This document shows, piece after piece, positions 780-6,359 of a stretch of 6,359 nucleotides of DNA. Under the pieces are notes generated by a model, which ran no database searches, was not told where the DNA came from, and worked only from the letters and a program-made list of their open reading frames with translations. The DNA is from a virus (taxonomy: Duplodnaviria > Heunggongvirae > Uroviricota > Caudoviricetes), in the IMG/VR virus record IMGVR_UViG_2695420514_000020, positions 1-6,359 of that record; one strand, written 5' to 3'. The position numbers and the translations under genes are program-made. Numbering within the stretch: position 1 is the first letter of the stretch; each line of letters starts with the position of its first letter.

Positions 780-811
780 CTGTGTATTCATTCCAACGAG
801 TGAATACACGG
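780..811 (+). other. inverted repeat / stem-loop without a U-tract
   Basis: GTGTATTCA (782-790) pairs with TGAATACAC (801-809); the stem extends with C780-G811 and a T781/G810 wobble; 10-nt loop. No T-run follows, so this is not a canonical terminator. It sits in the 185-bp non-coding gap. Confidence 0.4.
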
Positions 812-871
812 AGCAATGTCGCTCGTAACTAAACAGGAGCCGACTTGTTCTGATTATTGGAAATCTTCTTT

Positions 872-896
872 GCCCTCCAGTGTGAGGGCTTTTTTA
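872..896 (+). terminator. rho-independent terminator
   Basis: GC-rich 6-bp stem GCCCTC (872-877) / GAGGGC (884-889), 6-nt loop, followed directly by TTTTTT (890-895). The orientation works only on the + strand. It lies inside the track ORF 857-1132, arguing that ORF is over-extended. Confidence 0.7.
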
Positions 897-961
897 TATG
901 CATACCAATAACGCTTCACTTGAGGCGTTTTCGTTATGCAATCAAACAGAAGGAGCATCCT

Positions 962-1132
962 ATGCAACAGTTCGCTATTGCAGGGGCGGCATCGGTTCGC
1001 CCTTTCAACCCGATTTTATCGGTACAGCATTCACGAAAAAATATTTTAACCGGAGCAGACTTTAAACAACCAAGAATGAAAAGTTTGCTCGAAAAGCTTT
1101 GGGATATTTTGAAACAACAAGGCCGTCCATGA
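962..1132 (+). CDS. CIII-like small regulatory protein (putative FtsH inhibitor, lysogeny control), 56 aa
   Basis: ATG 962 preceded by AGGAG (951-955) with a 6-nt spacer. Product MQQFAIAGAASVRPFNPILSVQHSRKNILTGADFKQPRMKSLLEKLWDILKQQGRP. The N-terminal FAIAG and C-terminal SLLEK...LWDILKQQG resemble lambda CIII (MQYAIAG... ESLLER... KRLIDILNQPG) as I recall it. The position upstream of the recombinase matches the lambda order cIII-kil-gam-bet. Confidence 0.5.
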   Translation: MQQFAIAGAASVRPFNPILSVQHSRKNILTGADFKQPRMKSLLEKLWDILKQQGRP

Positions 1133-1236
1133 GTTTTACAGATAACTGGTCAGACGAAGAATTCATTCGTCAGATGAACAAAATGCTCAATCAGCACAAA
1201 GAACAGGAGAAAGATGATGATTCTGACTCTGAATGA
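1129..1236 (+). CDS. hypothetical small acidic protein (35 aa)
   Basis: ATG 1129 overlaps the CIII-like stop (ATGA). Weak SD AAGG (1119-1122). Product MSFTDNWSDEEFIRQMNKMLNQHKEQEKDDDSDSE; stop TGA 1234-1236. It is below the track length cutoff and overlaps the next gene start by 23 nt. It occupies the kil-like position. Confidence 0.35.
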   Translation: MSFTDNWSDEEFIRQMNKMLNQHKEQEKDDDSDSE

Positions 1237-1525
1237 TAAGCGTGAAATATCGCAAATAATCGCAAGTTTTACTGATGAAGATTACGAACGAATCAACAGT
1301 GAAGTTGATCGTCTCTGCAAACGTTGCGACCCCATAAGCGAAATGCTTCGCTCATATAAACCAGATGAACACACTAAGGACGCTATCGACTGGCTGGAAG
1401 ATGATGACTGTAACTATCAGGAAAAAGCCGCTGAATGGTTCTGGGATGCAATAACCGAAAGAGTTAAGGCTGAATATGCCTTCGCAATATTCAAACGCAG
1501 ACATATTTATGGAGAAGCTGCATGA
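1214..1525 (+). CDS. hypothetical protein (103 aa) immediately upstream of recT
   Basis: Tandem ATGs at 1214 and 1217 follow AGGAGA (1205-1210). Stop TGA 1523-1525 overlaps the recT ATG (ATGA). No family recognised. It occupies the gam-like position. Confidence 0.6.
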   Translation: MMILTLNDKREISQIIASFTDEDYERINSEVDRLCKRCDPISEMLRSYKPDEHTKDAIDWLEDDDCNYQEKAAEWFWDAITERVKAEYAFAIFKRRHIYGEAA

Positions 1526-2424
1526 GCAATATCGTTGAATTCGTTAAACAGCAAGAGCAGTTATTCTGCGGAGCATTGACTGAACAGACGGTGACATGGG
1601 CTAAGGAAAGCCAGTTTGCAATTCAGTATTTCCAGAAAAATGATTACCTGGCTAAAACAGCACTGGCAAATCCAACCAGCGCACAGAACGCCATCATCAA
1701 TGTTGCGGCGATCGGCATCACCTTAAACCCGGCCAGCAAACTGGCTTATCTGGTTCCTCGCGACGGCATGGTGTGCCTTGATATCAGTTACATGGGATTA
1801 CTTCATCTTGCGCAATCGACAGGATCAATTAAGTGGGGGCAATGCAAACTGGTGTACTCAAACGACACCTATGAATCAAATGGCCTTGATTCAGCACCAA
1901 CCCACAAATACAACGCATTTGGTGAGCGAGGCTCTATTGTTGGAGGTTATTGCACGGTTAAAACAGCAGATGGTGACTACCTGACTGAAGAAATGAGTCT
2001 GGCAGAAATTAAAGCTGTGGAAGCAACGAGCAAGGCAAAGAATGGACCGTGGAAAACATTCTGGGAAGAGATGGCGCGTAAAACAATAGTTAAACGCGCC
2101 AGCAAATACTGGCCTAAAGCCCAGCGACTGGATAATGCCATTCACCTTCTTAACGAAGATGAAGGTATGCATCAGGAACCAGTTATGCCGCACAAATCAG
2201 AGGAAGATATCCGCGAAGATGAACGGAAACGCCAGCAGGAAATAATGGATAAAGCACAACTTCTTTGCGATGAAATGGCTCAGGCAGAAAACATGGACGA
2301 TTTGAAGCGATATTTTGCAGAAGCATATCGCCTGACATCTGGAATGAAATTGCAGCAGAACGTACAAGCCATTTACATAGAATGCAAAGCGAAACTGGAG
2401 GTTGCCAGTGAGCAAACTGTATGA
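1522..2424 (+). CDS. recT: RecT-family single-strand annealing recombinase (300 aa)
   Basis: The segment NGPWKTFWEEMARKTIVKRASKYWP closely matches the Rac RecT segment NGPWVTHWEEMAKKTAIRRLFKYLP (from memory). Length and surrounding residues are consistent. SD GGAGAAG (1511-1517). Confidence 0.85.
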   Translation: MSNIVEFVKQQEQLFCGALTEQTVTWAKESQFAIQYFQKNDYLAKTALANPTSAQNAIINVAAIGITLNPASKLAYLVPRDGMVCLDISYMGLLHLAQSTGSIKWGQCKLVYSNDTYESNGLDSAPTHKYNAFGERGSIVGGYCTVKTADGDYLTEEMSLAEIKAVEATSKAKNGPWKTFWEEMARKTIVKRASKYWPKAQRLDNAIHLLNEDEGMHQEPVMPHKSEEDIREDERKRQQEIMDKAQLLCDEMAQAENMDDLKRYFAEAYRLTSGMKLQQNVQAIYIECKAKLEVASEQTV

Positions 2425-2890
2425 AATTGCCAATGAATACGCAAAATTGATGGATTCAGATTTAGAACCAGAGATGATTGCTGACACAATAGAAGGCATG
2501 GAAGGAGAATTTACCGATAAAATAGAGCAACTTCTCGCCATTATTAAAAATGAATCTGGTTATGCTGAACGCCTCAAGGAAGAGGCAAAGTCACTAAATG
2601 AGCGAGCCGTAGTAATTCAAAATAAGATTGACAGCATTATGGCGTATATAGCGTCATCGCTTGAAATGGTTGGCAAGAAAAAGATTCGAGCAGGTATTCA
2701 CCAGGTAACAATCCGCAAACCGTCAGAAACTGTAGAAATCATCGACTCAAGCGCCCTTCCTCCTGAATACGTTGAGTTCGAAACGACAATTAAAGCCGAC
2801 AAACTGGCAATCAAACACCAACTAAAAGCAGGAATAAATATCCCCGGTGCTCAACTCAAAGTTGGGAAACCTTCACTTCTTATCAAATAA
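2408..2890 (+). CDS. Siphovirus Gp157-like protein (about 160 aa), common RecT companion
   Basis: GTG 2408 is 6 nt after GGAGG (2397-2401); the track starts at in-frame TTG 2402. Overlaps the recT 3' end by 17 nt. N-terminal KLYEIANEYAKLMDSD...DTIEGMEGEF followed by a coiled-coil region fits my memory of the Gp157 family (PF05565), which typically sits beside RecT or Erf. Confidence 0.6.
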   Translation: MSKLYEIANEYAKLMDSDLEPEMIADTIEGMEGEFTDKIEQLLAIIKNESGYAERLKEEAKSLNERAVVIQNKIDSIMAYIASSLEMVGKKKIRAGIHQVTIRKPSETVEIIDSSALPPEYVEFETTIKADKLAIKHQLKAGINIPGAQLKVGKPSLLIK

Positions 2891-2901
2891 CGGTATCGCC
2901 T

Positions 2902-3216
2902 ATGAAAAAGACTCCATGGGAGAAATGGGAAGTCGATTTCTTGCGCGAAGTAGCGGCGACAATGCCAGTTGAAGTTATCGCTGAAAAACTGGAAAGGACT
3001 GAAAAAGCAGTTATGGCGAAAGCAACAAGGATTGGCGCTGACATTGTTAGCCGACTTCGTGGAAGACGCTGGACAAGAGCCGAAGTATCACTTTTCGGTA
3101 AGTTCTCCGCAGAAGAAATAGCAATTGCAACCTGCCGCTCAATTTATTCAGTAAGAGCTATGCGATACAAGCTAAAAAAACTCGATGAAGAAAGAGCAGG
3201 CATACGAATAAATTAA
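2902..3216 (+). CDS. putative DNA-binding protein with two tandem Myb/SANT-like HTH repeats (104 aa)
   Basis: ATG 2902, 11 nt after the upstream stop, with no strong SD. Two internal repeats share a W-x(2-3)-E-x(2)-L ... EEIA ... R(T/S)-x(3)-(A)VR pattern: [12 protein letters not shown]...[21 protein letters not shown] and [37 protein letters not shown]. Confidence 0.55.
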
Positions 3217-3232
3217 CAAAGAGGAATTTACC

Positions 3233-3397
3233 ATGAGAGGACTTGCATACAATCCCGGCATTCTTCCGGCAGAAATGATTATTCGCCAACGCGTAAAGCC
3301 AATGCCATCGAGAGAGGAATTGCTTAAGAGAAATTCTTTTCCATCAGTGAATCAAAACAAATATCTGAATGCGATGTTGCGGAGTGGGAAGAAATGA
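3233..3397 (+). CDS. hypothetical small protein (54 aa)
   Basis: ATG 3233 preceded by AAGAGGA (3219-3225) with a 7-nt spacer. Stop TGA 3395-3397 overlaps the next ATG (ATGA). Below the track cutoff. Confidence 0.45.
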
Positions 3398-3906
3398 AAC
3401 AAATGACACTAATTGAGATGGATGGTTTTCTGAAAGGTAAATGCATCCCAAGCGATTTAAAGGTTAACGAAACAAACGCTGAATATCTTGTCCGTAAGTT
3501 CGGTGAACTTGAATCAAAACTGGAAACGGCGTTGCGGGAGTGTCGTTCTGCTGGAATCACGATTGATAACCTTGAGGCTAAATGCACGAAGATGGCTGCT
3601 GAAAATACATCGCTTAAGCAATCTGAGAAGGAATTTAATGACTTTTGTCGTGAGGAGTTTAGCGAATGGGAAGATGATGTTACTGAAACTCCAGCCACCG
3701 ATGCTTTTCTGTCTGAAGTGCGGGCGCAGGGGGTGGATGCTGCTATAGAAGCTGCAAAAAATCTGGTGGCCCAAGAATATGAGTATAAGGATTTCAAAGC
3801 GGCGCAGAGTGATTGCTGTATGCACCCTGGTTCAGACCTGGTAGGGAAGGTTGAAATGACTGAGTGGTTAGTTGACTTTGCTGCCCAGCTTCGCAAAGGA
3901 GAGTGA
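3394..3906 (+). CDS. hypothetical coiled-coil protein (170 aa), possibly Ead/Ea22-like
   Basis: Long + strand ORF with a heptad-like charged helical middle ([44 protein letters not shown]). GGAG 3381-3384 upstream. The antisense ORFs across it are Ser-rich low-complexity shadows. Confidence 0.65.
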
Positions 3907-6167: not shown

Positions 6168-6359
6168 ATGAGCGATACTAGCCTGATTCCTGAGAAAGAA
6201 GTGATGAACAAGCTCGGTGTTTCATCACGTCAGACAATCTGGAACTATACCAAACGGCACGGATTTCCGAAGCCAGTCAGAACCCACCCCAAATCATACC
6301 TTCGTGAAGCTGTTGAAGGGTGGATTCTTAACGGTGGCGTTAATCAGAAATGCTCCTGA
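6168..6359 (+). CDS. AlpA/Xis-family HTH DNA-binding protein (63 aa); putative excisionase or integrase activator
   Basis: ATG 6168 is 7 nt after GGAG (6157-6160). Pattern IPEKEVMNKLGVSSRQTIWNYTKRHGFPKPV...EAVEGWI matches the AlpA/Xis-family arrangement (…EV…G.SR.TIY…G.FPKP…W) as I recall it. The window ends at its stop codon. Confidence 0.65.
   Translation: MSDTSLIPEKEVMNKLGVSSRQTIWNYTKRHGFPKPVRTHPKSYLREAVEGWILNGGVNQKCS

What the first reader, a model, noticed from the sequence alone, without database searches (positions are those of the whole stretch)
1214..2890. RecT recombination module with a Gp157-like partner but no recognisable exonuclease; unknown 103-aa gene at the gam position
Seen in sequence: the gene order is 103-aa unknown, RecT, Gp157-like, all translationally coupled. 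No ORF anywhere in the window has the size or motifs of RecE or lambda Exo. Established knowledge: RecT usually works with a 5'-3' exonuclease, and in lambda the gene before bet is gam, a RecBCD inhibitor. Inference: the 103-aa protein may be a non-homologous host-nuclease inhibitor or other recombination accessory factor, and the exonuclease may lie outside the window or be supplied by a non-canonical protein.
Basis: partly seen in the sequence, partly recalled or inferred. Interest (0 to 1): 0.45.

Follow-up and report, generated by a model that had tools for sequence, protein, structure and literature searches.

The report
Hidden Gam-like gene heading RecT module
This is the recombination cassette of a lambda-like E. 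coli prophage, of an already described exonuclease-free type (RecT plus a Mu-Gam-like protein), and its unannotated first gene is predicted to fold like lambda Gam, the classic inhibitor of the host RecBCD nuclease.

Summary
Three coupled genes lie at 1214-2890: a 103-aa unknown ("X", phrog_3486), RecT (PF03837) and a Gp157-family protein (PF05565). No nuclease domain is found in the window.

The missing exonuclease is not outside the window. The complete genome of phage HK140, which carries the same module at 94% DNA identity, has no Exo or RecE. Zheng et al. 2025 (PMC12315714) already list this module type: RecT-type annealing protein plus "MuGam" anti-RecBCD, no nuclease. They report that 84 of 246 lambdoid Rec modules lack a nuclease.

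The new result concerns X.
- X shares a co-linear DDDxx[YF]QE..AE motif with Gam, and is equally small and acidic.
- In all 10 informative lineages it lies directly upstream of a RecT or RecE-like gene.
- A true lambda Gam (locus L052) or GamL (phi80) fills the same slot before the same RecT type.

X is therefore most likely an unrecognised Gam-fold host-nuclease inhibitor. No sequence family model detects it, and no function was tested. Verdict: known module type, probable new member of the Gam kind; moderate interest.

The parts
962..1132 (+). cIII (56 aa), left flank of the Rec module
   Evidence: MQQFAIAG...SLLEKLWDILKQ resembles lambda CIII. The homologous gene is annotated CIII in HK140, mEpX1 and SEN22. 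Its stop overlaps the next ORF's ATG.
1129..1236 (+). 35-aa ORF. Its first 16 aa (50 nt) are identical to HK75 gp33. It is either a mosaic junction or a truncated gp33-like gene.
   Evidence: phrog_17766 at E 5e-16 and phrog_2123 at E 3.5e-10. BLASTP against HK75 gp33: 16 of 21 identical. blastn 1129-1178 is 100% identical to HK75.
1214..1525 (+). X: 103-aa acidic all-helical protein (phrog_3486); predicted lambda-Gam fold; proposed host-nuclease (RecBCD) inhibitor
1522..2424 (+). RecT single-strand annealing protein ('SAP-4' type), with a partner-specific C-terminal 86 aa
   Evidence: PF03837 E 2.5e-33; phrog_148 E 1.8e-91. C-terminal analysis.
2408..2890 (+). Gp157-family protein (160 aa from GTG 2408): presumed Mu-Gam/Ku-like DNA-end-binding protein, in the slot where relatives carry the exonuclease
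   Evidence: PF05565 E 1e-36; PF07352 (Mu Gam) E 0.024, below its cut-off; phrog_253 'Mu Gam-like end protection' E 6e-53. Called MuGam in HK140 by PMC12315714.
2902..3216 (+). D5-like HTH protein; constant right-hand neighbour of the module, not shown to belong to it
   Evidence: phrog_11492 and phrog_323. Follows Gp157 in 80 of 80 loci, but also follows the alternative cassette in SEN22.

Best explanation
The region is the homologous-recombination (Rec) module of the early-left operon of a lambdoid E. coli prophage. It is of the HK140/mEpX1 type. It has two exchangeable cassettes.

Slot 1 holds X. X is a small acidic helical protein with the lambda Gam fold. It most likely acts as a DNA-mimicking inhibitor of RecBCD, and possibly of SbcCD.

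Slot 2 holds RecT plus a Gp157-family protein.
- RecT anneals single-stranded DNA.
- Gp157 is presumed to bind double-strand ends as Mu Gam does. It stands where related modules carry the 5'-3' exonuclease. It may dock on RecT's partner-specific C-terminal domain.

No phage exonuclease is involved. The single-stranded DNA that RecT needs would come from host nucleases or helicases, or from replication.

Shown here: gene identities, fold prediction, gene order, cassette swapping, and absence of a nuclease in a complete relative. Inferred: RecBCD inhibition by X, end binding by Gp157, Gp157-RecT contact, and the source of single-stranded DNA.
For: Module identity and the missing nuclease:
- RecT and Gp157 family hits.
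- The same module occurs in complete phages. The whole HK140 genome has no Exo or RecE.
- PMC12315714 lists HK140 as SAP-4 + MuGam with no nuclease and no SSB. It reports that 84 of 246 modules lack a nuclease.

X as a Gam-fold protein:
- hhalign of the X family against the GamS family gave a co-linear local match, X 53-79 to Gam 57-83 (DDDCNYQEKAAE against DDDVEFQERMAE). Score 23.4, P 8e-4. None of 400 column shuffles reached it (mean 11.2, sd 2).
- X family median pI is 4.65 and net charge -9. GamS is 4.78 and -10; GamL is 4.65 and -7. All are about 100 aa.

Gene position and cassette swapping:
- In 10 of 10 informative lineages X lies directly upstream of RecT (7) or a DUF3799/RecE-like nuclease (3), with overlapping stop and start.
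- In L052 a true lambda-type Gam (63% identical to lambda Gam, E 1e-56) occupies X's place before RecT (86%) > Gp157 (99%). DNA homology with the window resumes at 1520, 2 nt before the RecT ATG.
- phi80 has gamL > RecT > exo.
- SEN22 keeps X (96%) but swaps RecT+Gp157 for a nuclease plus a 189-aa protein, exactly between the stop of X and the start of the D5-like gene.

RecT C-terminal domain:
- It is 16-17% identical to Exo-partnered RecTs whose cores are 50-60% identical to the window's.
- It is 94% identical to the Gp157-partnered L052 copy.
Against: Against X as a Gam relative:
- No sequence model recognises X as Gam: Pfam and NCBIfam gave nothing, and an HMM search of PDB sequences did not retrieve Gam.
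- hhalign probability is only 24%. X against GamL shows no signal, whereas Gam against GamL gives 95%.
- Foldseek against BFVD gave no significant hit and did not list Gam among its top 50.
- X has a broken N-terminal helix pair (6-17, 21-35). In GamS a single long N-terminal helix plugs the RecB channel.

Against a complete RecBCD block:
- HK140 keeps 4 top-strand Chi sites where 0.6 are expected.

Against Gp157 as Mu Gam-like:
- It sits in a different PHROG from Mu Gam (phrog_253 against phrog_491).
- BLASTP and hhalign were not significant, and the Pfam hit is below its cut-off.

Against a RecT-Gp157 contact:
- The co-variation of the RecT C-terminal domain with the downstream gene may reflect only physical linkage.
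Confidence: 0.62

Rival explanations
1. X is an accessory recombination factor, in the manner of P22 Arf. It would help load or stabilise the downstream recombinase or nuclease rather than inhibit a host nuclease. On this reading the Gam resemblance is a coincidence of small helical folds.
For: - Stop and start overlap tightly with the next recombination gene in every lineague seen.
- No sequence model links X to Gam.
- P22 has small accessory genes of unknown mechanism in the same place (PMC12315714).
Against: - The downstream partner is not constant: RecT in 7 lineages, a DUF3799 nuclease in 3. A specific protein partner is therefore unlikely.
- Gam and GamL, both known inhibitors, fill the same slot.
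- The Gam fold was the top PDB hit twice.
- X has a Gam-like acidic charge.
Confidence: 0.15
2. X is a DNA-mimic or decoy aimed at a different host target, such as SbcCD or an anti-phage defence system that acts on DNA ends. RecBCD would not be its main target.
For: - X is an acidic small helical protein in an early-left region that a recent preprint describes as a hotspot for anti-immunity genes and RecBCD manipulators.
- The phi80 gamL annotation also names SbcCD.
- The module already has Gp157 as a putative end protector, so a second RecBCD blocker looks redundant.
Against: - The best structural match and the positional equivalents are RecBCD inhibitors.
- A Gam-type protein co-occurring with a MuGam-type protein has precedents: L052 and HK639 (PMC12315714).
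Confidence: 0.15
3. The module is a decayed remnant. An exonuclease was lost and the remaining genes are non-functional or on the way out.
For: - No exonuclease is present.
- PMC12315714 notes that one- or two-gene modules are 'somewhat suspect'.
Against: - The same module is present in plaque-forming phages HK140 and mEpX1, and in Kapi1 and Gally.
- It is intact in 76 of 80 IMG/VR loci.
- The trio is conserved at 52% X identity in Enterobacter.
- All ORFs are intact with coupled starts.
- Gp157-type genes accompany SSAPs without an exonuclease across Firmicutes phages (PMC8093625).
Confidence: 0.05

Closest known systems
Lambda Gam (GamS, PF06064; PDB 2uuz, 5mbv)
   Same: - About 100 aa, acidic and all-helical.
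- Shared DDDxx[YF]QE..AE motif at the same position.
- First gene of the Rec module after cIII/kil, directly before the annealing-protein gene.
- Physically replaces X in L052.
   Different: - No detectable family-level sequence similarity (about 15% identity).
- X has two shorter N-terminal helices where Gam has one long channel-plugging helix.
- Dimerisation and RecBCD binding of X are untested.
phi80 GamL (PF28165)
   Same: - Same slot before the same RecT type (SAP-4).
- Same size and charge.
- Reported to have a Gam-like predicted fold despite a very different sequence (PMC12315714).
   Different: - GamL keeps the Gam N-terminal sequence (MNAY..DRIE..W; hhalign 95% against Gam). X does not.
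- X against GamL shows no profile signal.
- In phi80 gamL is annotated as toxic without the upstream gene agt (Mog). No such gene lies next to X.
HK140-type Rec module (SAP-4 + MuGam, no nuclease, no SSB) of Zheng et al. 2025, PMC12315714
   Same: It is the same module: 94% DNA identity to HK140, and an identical X protein.
   Different: That paper counts only RecT and the MuGam-type gene. The upstream 103-aa gene is not listed as a Rec or anti-RecBCD gene. SEN22, which carries X at 96% identity, is scored as having no anti-RecBCD.
Phage Mu Gam / Ku end-binding proteins (PF07352, phrog_491)
   Same: - Gp157 carries the PHROG label 'Mu Gam-like end protection'.
- It has a weak co-linear Pfam hit to Mu Gam (residues 45-161 against model positions 33-147 of 149).
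- In Firmicutes phages the two families occupy the same position next to SSAP genes (PMC8093625).
   Different: - They are different Pfam and PHROG families.
- Pairwise and profile comparisons made here were not significant.
- DNA-end binding by any Gp157 protein was neither tested here nor cited.
P22 Erf-Abc2 module
   Same: It belongs to the same functional class in PMC12315714: an annealing protein plus an anti-RecBCD function, with no phage exonuclease.
   Different: Abc2 reprograms RecBCD rather than blocking it. The annealing protein is Erf, not RecT. None of the proteins are homologous to those here.

Membership tests
Lambda Gam family (PF06064) | Sequence match to the family model | tested here: not met
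   - No Pfam hit for X or any of 37 family members, even at E up to 10.
- No NCBIfam hit.
- PDB sequence HMM search does not retrieve Gam.
- Only a local profile-profile match: 27 columns, P 8e-4, probability 24%.
Lambda Gam family (PF06064) | Gam fold (helical monomer of about 90-100 aa) | tested here: met
Lambda Gam family (PF06064) | Acidic DNA-mimic surface; small size | tested here: met
   Only bulk charge was tested. Median pI is 4.65 and net charge -9, against 4.78 and -10 for GamS. The surface pattern was not analysed.
Lambda Gam family (PF06064) | Gene placed at the head of the Rec module, before the annealing-protein or nuclease genes | tested here: met
   10 of 10 lineages. Slot shared with Gam (L052) and GamL.
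Lambda Gam family (PF06064) | Dimer that binds the DNA entry site of RecBCD and inhibits it | not testable with these tools
   Needs complex prediction or biochemistry. The Gam mechanism is taken from PMC5218532.
GamL (PF28165) | Sequence or profile similarity to phi80 GamL | tested here: not met
   hhalign of the X family against the GamL family: probability 0.2%, P 0.39.
RecT family (PF03837) | Match to the RecT domain above the curated cut-off | tested here: met
   115.7 bits against a cut-off of 24. TIGR00616 at 76.8 bits against 52.65.
Two-component RecET/Red recombinase (SSAP + 5'-3' exonuclease) | Adjacent YqaJ/lambda-Exo or RecE/DUF3799 exonuclease gene | tested here: not met
   No nuclease domain in any window ORF. 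None in the complete HK140 genome. Relatives with the same X do have one.
Siphovirus Gp157 family (PF05565) | Full-length match above the curated cut-off | tested here: met
   126.8 bits against 28.6, model positions 1-162 of 162.
Mu Gam / Ku end-binding family (PF07352) | Sequence membership | tested here: inconclusive
   - PF07352 hit at 15 bits, E 0.024, below the cut-off of 28.3.
- Mu Gam falls in phrog_491 and Gp157 in phrog_253, although both carry the same label.
- BLASTP E 0.61.
- hhalign P 0.4.
Mu Gam / Ku end-binding family (PF07352) | Binds double-strand DNA ends and blocks exonucleases | not testable with these tools
   Inferred only from the PHROG label and from the classification in PMC12315714.
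Lambdoid Rec module, 'P22' functional class (anti-RecBCD + SAP, no nuclease, no SSB; PMC12315714) | Gene content and location in the early-left operon between cIII and xis/int | tested here: met
   Gene order cIII ... AlpA/xis in the window. HK140 is named as an example in the paper.

The most novel reading that the evidence does not exclude
X (phrog_3486) founds a third branch of Gam-fold RecBCD inhibitors that sequence methods do not recognise. It heads Rec modules in phages of Escherichia, Salmonella, Enterobacter, Cronobacter and Erwinia.

If so, phages now scored as lacking an anti-RecBCD function (the SEN22 type, possibly Edno5) do have one. HK140-type modules would then combine two layers: a RecBCD mimic-blocker (X) and an end-capping Gp157. 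Gp157 would have taken over the exonuclease's docking site on RecT's C-terminal domain, giving an exonuclease-independent mode of RecT recombination.
Probability: 0.45. Interest if true: 0.55.

Novelty: new member of a known kind. Interest (0 to 1): 0.4.

Why it matters
RecBCD inhibitors decide whether a phage survives host nuclease attack. They are also the signals that guard systems such as P2 OLD, retron Ec48 and Gabija respond to. They are used as tools too: Gam in recombineering, in base editors, and for quinolone potentiation.

A Gam-fold family that current annotation misses would change three things.
- It would alter the published link between anti-RecBCD genes and Chi-site content in lambdoid phages.
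- It would add candidate triggers for those guard systems.
- It would give a natural set of interchangeable parts ({X, Gam, GamL} x RecT x {Exo, Gp157}) for working out what RecT needs in place of an exonuclease.

If X is not an inhibitor, the locus is simply a documented nuclease-less Rec module.

Tried and rejected
- Exonuclease just outside the window: rejected. The complete HK140 genome and the mEpX1 early-left region from cI to int have none.
- A non-canonical nuclease inside the window: no support from Pfam or PHROGs for any ORF.
- Direct sequence routes from X to Gam failed: Pfam on all 37 members, NCBIfam, HMM search against PDB sequences, Foldseek against BFVD, and hhalign against GamL.
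- The exhaustive HMM search found only about 53 representatives, nearly all proteins of about 100 aa with no known domain.
- The search for related loci with the broad alignment A3 failed because no stretch was conserved enough. With A2 on species-representative genomes it gave one locus.
- Gp157 against Mu Gam by BLASTP and hhalign was not significant. A PDB sequence search with Gp157 found nothing.
- Chi-site count as a proxy for RecBCD blockade was uninformative or mildly contrary: HK140 has 4 top-strand sites.
- The supplementary tables of PMC12315714 are not held. How that paper treats the X gene is therefore inferred from its main text only.
- HK75 gp33, a recently proposed RecBCD manipulator, is not X. 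It matches only the first 16 aa of the neighbouring 35-aa ORF.
Full report
**1. What is in the window**

The + strand reads as the early-left (pL) operon of a lambdoid enterobacterial prophage:
- cIII, 962-1132
- a 35-aa ORF, 1129-1236
- a 103-aa ORF, here called X, 1214-1525
- RecT, 1522-2424
- a Gp157-family gene, 2408-2890
- a D5-like HTH gene, 2902-3216
- DUF2737, an ead/Ea22-like gene, DUF551 and DUF4752
- several unknowns
- an AlpA/excisionase-like gene, starting at 6168

RecT matches PF03837 at E 2.5e-33. The third gene of the finding matches Sipho_Gp157 (PF05565) at E 1e-36 over the whole model.

The stop of X and the start of RecT overlap as ATGA. The Gp157 gene overlaps the end of recT. 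Its best start is GTG 2408, behind a GGAGG, rather than TTG 2402.

No ORF hits a nuclease family.

**2. Where it comes from, and the 'missing' exonuclease**

The module is 92-95% identical in DNA to that of several phages. These are HK140, mEpX1, Gally (the LF82 prophage) and Kapi1. It also occurs in many E. coli chromosomes.

HK140's early-left operon reads ral, cIII, X, RecT, Gp157 ('Mu Gam-like end protection'), D5-like..., xis, int. Its complete annotated genome has no Exo or RecE. It has only NinB, RusA and two HNH genes elsewhere. mEpX1 has the same arrangement.

So the exonuclease is not hiding outside the window.

This is already in the literature. Zheng, Casjens, Davidson, Amundsen and Smith (Genome Res 2025, PMC12315714) classify lambdoid Rec modules. 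They name HK140 as 'SAP sequence type 4' (RecT) with no nuclease, no SSB and a 'MuGam' anti-RecBCD protein. They report that 84 of 246 modules lack a nuclease.

In Firmicutes phages, Gp157-type and Mu-gam-type genes occupy equivalent positions next to erf and sak4 (PMC8093625).

**3. The 103-aa protein X**

X is unannotated: phrog_3486 'unknown function', no Pfam and no NCBIfam hit.

A word-indexed search found only close E. coli relatives. An exhaustive HMM search of 1.84 billion representatives found 53 hits. Nearly all are proteins of about 100 aa, down to about 25% identity.

*Sequence motif.* Profile-profile comparison of the X family with a GamS family alignment gave one local, co-linear match. 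X 53-79 aligns to Gam 57-83, DDDCNYQEKAAE against DDDVEFQERMAE. The score was 23.4, P 8e-4 and probability 24%. None of 400 column-shuffled controls reached that score (mean 11.2, sd 2).

*Charge.* X proteins are as acidic as Gam and GamL. Median pI is 4.65, against 4.78 and 4.65.

*Negative results:*
- hmmsearch against PDB sequences did not retrieve Gam.
- Pfam on all members gave nothing.
- Foldseek against BFVD gave no significant hit.
- hhalign against phi80 GamL showed no signal, although Gam against GamL scores 95%.

**4. Genomic logic**

In every informative lineage, X is the gene directly upstream of a recombination gene, with overlapping stop and start.

| Gene order | Where |
|---|---|
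| X > RecT > Gp157 | window, HK140 |
| X > RecT > Gp157 | Enterobacter adelaidei prophage L178 (X 52% identical) |
| X > RecT > YqaJ/Exo | L004, L005, Cronobacter phage ENT47670, Erwinia phage Midgardsormr38 |
| X > RecT (contig ends) | L013 |
| X > DUF3799 (RecE-like) > RecT | Erwinia phage phiEt88 |
| X > DUF3799 | Salmonella phage SEN22 (X 96% identical), L012 |

Among 80 IMG/VR loci holding this Gp157, 76 have X>RecT>Gp157>D5-like.

One exception is informative. In L052 a true lambda-type Gam (63% identical to lambda Gam, E 1e-56) stands in X's place. It is followed by RecT (86%), Gp157 (99%) and the D5-like gene. DNA homology with the window resumes at position 1520, two bases before the RecT ATG.

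phi80 has gamL > RecT > exo with the same RecT type.

Conversely, SEN22 shares cIII, the small ORF and X with the window up to the stop of X (1525). It resumes at the D5-like start (2902). In between it has swapped RecT+Gp157 for a DUF3799 nuclease plus a 189-aa protein.

The region therefore behaves as two cassettes:
- slot 1 = {X | Gam | GamL}
- slot 2 = {RecT+Gp157 | RecT+Exo | RecE-like+other}

X fills the slot otherwise held by known RecBCD inhibitors, whatever recombinase follows it.

PMC12315714 scores SEN22 as lacking anti-RecBCD and HK140 as having only MuGam. To that extent, the Gam-like nature of X appears not to have been noted. That paper's supplementary tables could not be read.

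**5. Gp157 and RecT**

Gp157 stands where relatives have the exonuclease.

Its link to Mu Gam is weak in my own tests:
- The PF07352 hit is E 0.024, below the cut-off.
- Mu Gam is in a different PHROG, phrog_491 against phrog_253, although both carry the same label.
- BLASTP and hhalign were not significant.

I therefore take 'Mu-Gam-like end binding' from the PHROG label and from PMC12315714, not from a test made here. The family is widespread: 591 phage records, mostly from Firmicutes and Vibrio.

RecT's C-terminal 86 residues are 16-17% identical to those of the Exo-partnered RecTs of phi80, ENT47670 and Midgardsormr38. The cores of those proteins are 50-60% identical to the window's. The same region is 94% identical to the Gp157-partnered L052 copy.

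This fits a partner-docking domain, an idea PMC12315714 raises in general terms. It could equally reflect simple linkage to the neighbouring gene.

**6. Mechanism proposed**

Shown:
- gene identities, order and coupling
- cassette exchange
- absence of a phage exonuclease
- the predicted Gam fold

Inferred:
- X blocks RecBCD, and perhaps SbcCD, by DNA mimicry as Gam does (PMC5218532).
- Gp157 caps double-strand ends.
- RecT anneals single-stranded DNA that is produced by host functions or at replication forks.

Two nuclease blockers in one module has precedents: Gam plus Gp157 in L052, and GamL plus MuGam in HK639.

Points against:
- HK140 keeps four top-strand Chi sites, where 0.6 are expected.
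- X has a broken N-terminal helix pair where Gam has one long helix that plugs the RecB channel.

**7. Verdict**

The module as a whole is an already described type. The guess about an exonuclease outside the window is wrong.

The assignment of X is a prediction. It rests on fold, a short motif, charge, size and strong positional evidence, and no function was tested. I rate it a probable new member of a known kind, of moderate interest.

Noticed in passing
window 1129-1236 (+): A 35-aa ORF lies between cIII and X. Its first 50 nt (16 aa, MSFTDNWSDEEFIRQM) are identical to the start of HK75 gp33. A 2026 preprint (10.64898/2026.07.10.737580) reports gp33 as sufficient to trigger the P2 OLD system and proposes it as a new RecBCD inhibitor or manipulator. 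The window copy diverges after residue 17 and overlaps the start of X. It may be a mosaic junction or a truncated gene.
   Followed up: partly
window 2164-2424 (RecT residues 215-300): The RecT C-terminal 86 aa are unrelated (16-17% identity) to those of Exo-partnered RecTs with 50-60% identical cores. They are 94% identical to the Gp157-partnered copy in L052. The C-terminal domain co-segregates with the downstream gene.
   Followed up: partly
window 2902-3216 (+); L016:1483-1782: The D5-like HTH gene after Gp157 falls in the same PHROG (phrog_323) as Mu gp9, the gene directly upstream of Mu gam. It follows Gp157 in 80 of 80 IMG/VR loci, and an HTH protein follows Gp157 in the Enterobacter locus L178. 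It is also present in SEN22, which has no Gp157.
   Followed up: partly
window 811-1525 and 2902-3406 vs L007 (SEN22); window 1520-3236 vs L052: Mosaic breakpoints fall exactly at gene boundaries: the stop of X, the start of RecT and the start of the D5-like gene. They define two independently exchangeable cassettes.
   Followed up: yes
window 1511-1525; alignment A3 C-terminus: The X family ends in a conserved E-[A/V]-A, whichever gene follows. The codons GAG-GCN or GAG-GTN create a GAGG Shine-Dalgarno sequence for the overlapping downstream start. The conservation may therefore be at the RNA level rather than the protein level.
   Followed up: no
L003 (HK140 genome) 2143, 13519, 15106, 16201: HK140 has four top-strand Chi sites and none on the bottom strand, where 0.63 per strand are expected. 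The window itself has none.
   Followed up: partly
proteins P0025, P0022, P0009: Database variants fuse parts of X to other sequence: the small upstream ORF joined to the C-terminal half of X, and the N-terminal half of X joined to ead-like or DUF551 sequence. This suggests frequent deletions or rearrangements in this region of E. coli prophages.
   Followed up: no
BFVD hit A0A3G3BYC6 (Edwardsiella phage Edno5, 104 aa): This is a weak structural match (TM 0.51) of X to an uncharacterised Edno5 protein. PMC12315714 lists Edno5 as RecT + RecE with no anti-RecBCD. It may be another X-like gene.
   Followed up: no
L042 and L054 (IMG/VR): Two loci have a 5'-truncated recT (residues 61-300 only) and no X, upstream of an intact Gp157. 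They are probably insertions or rearrangements that disrupt the module.
   Followed up: no
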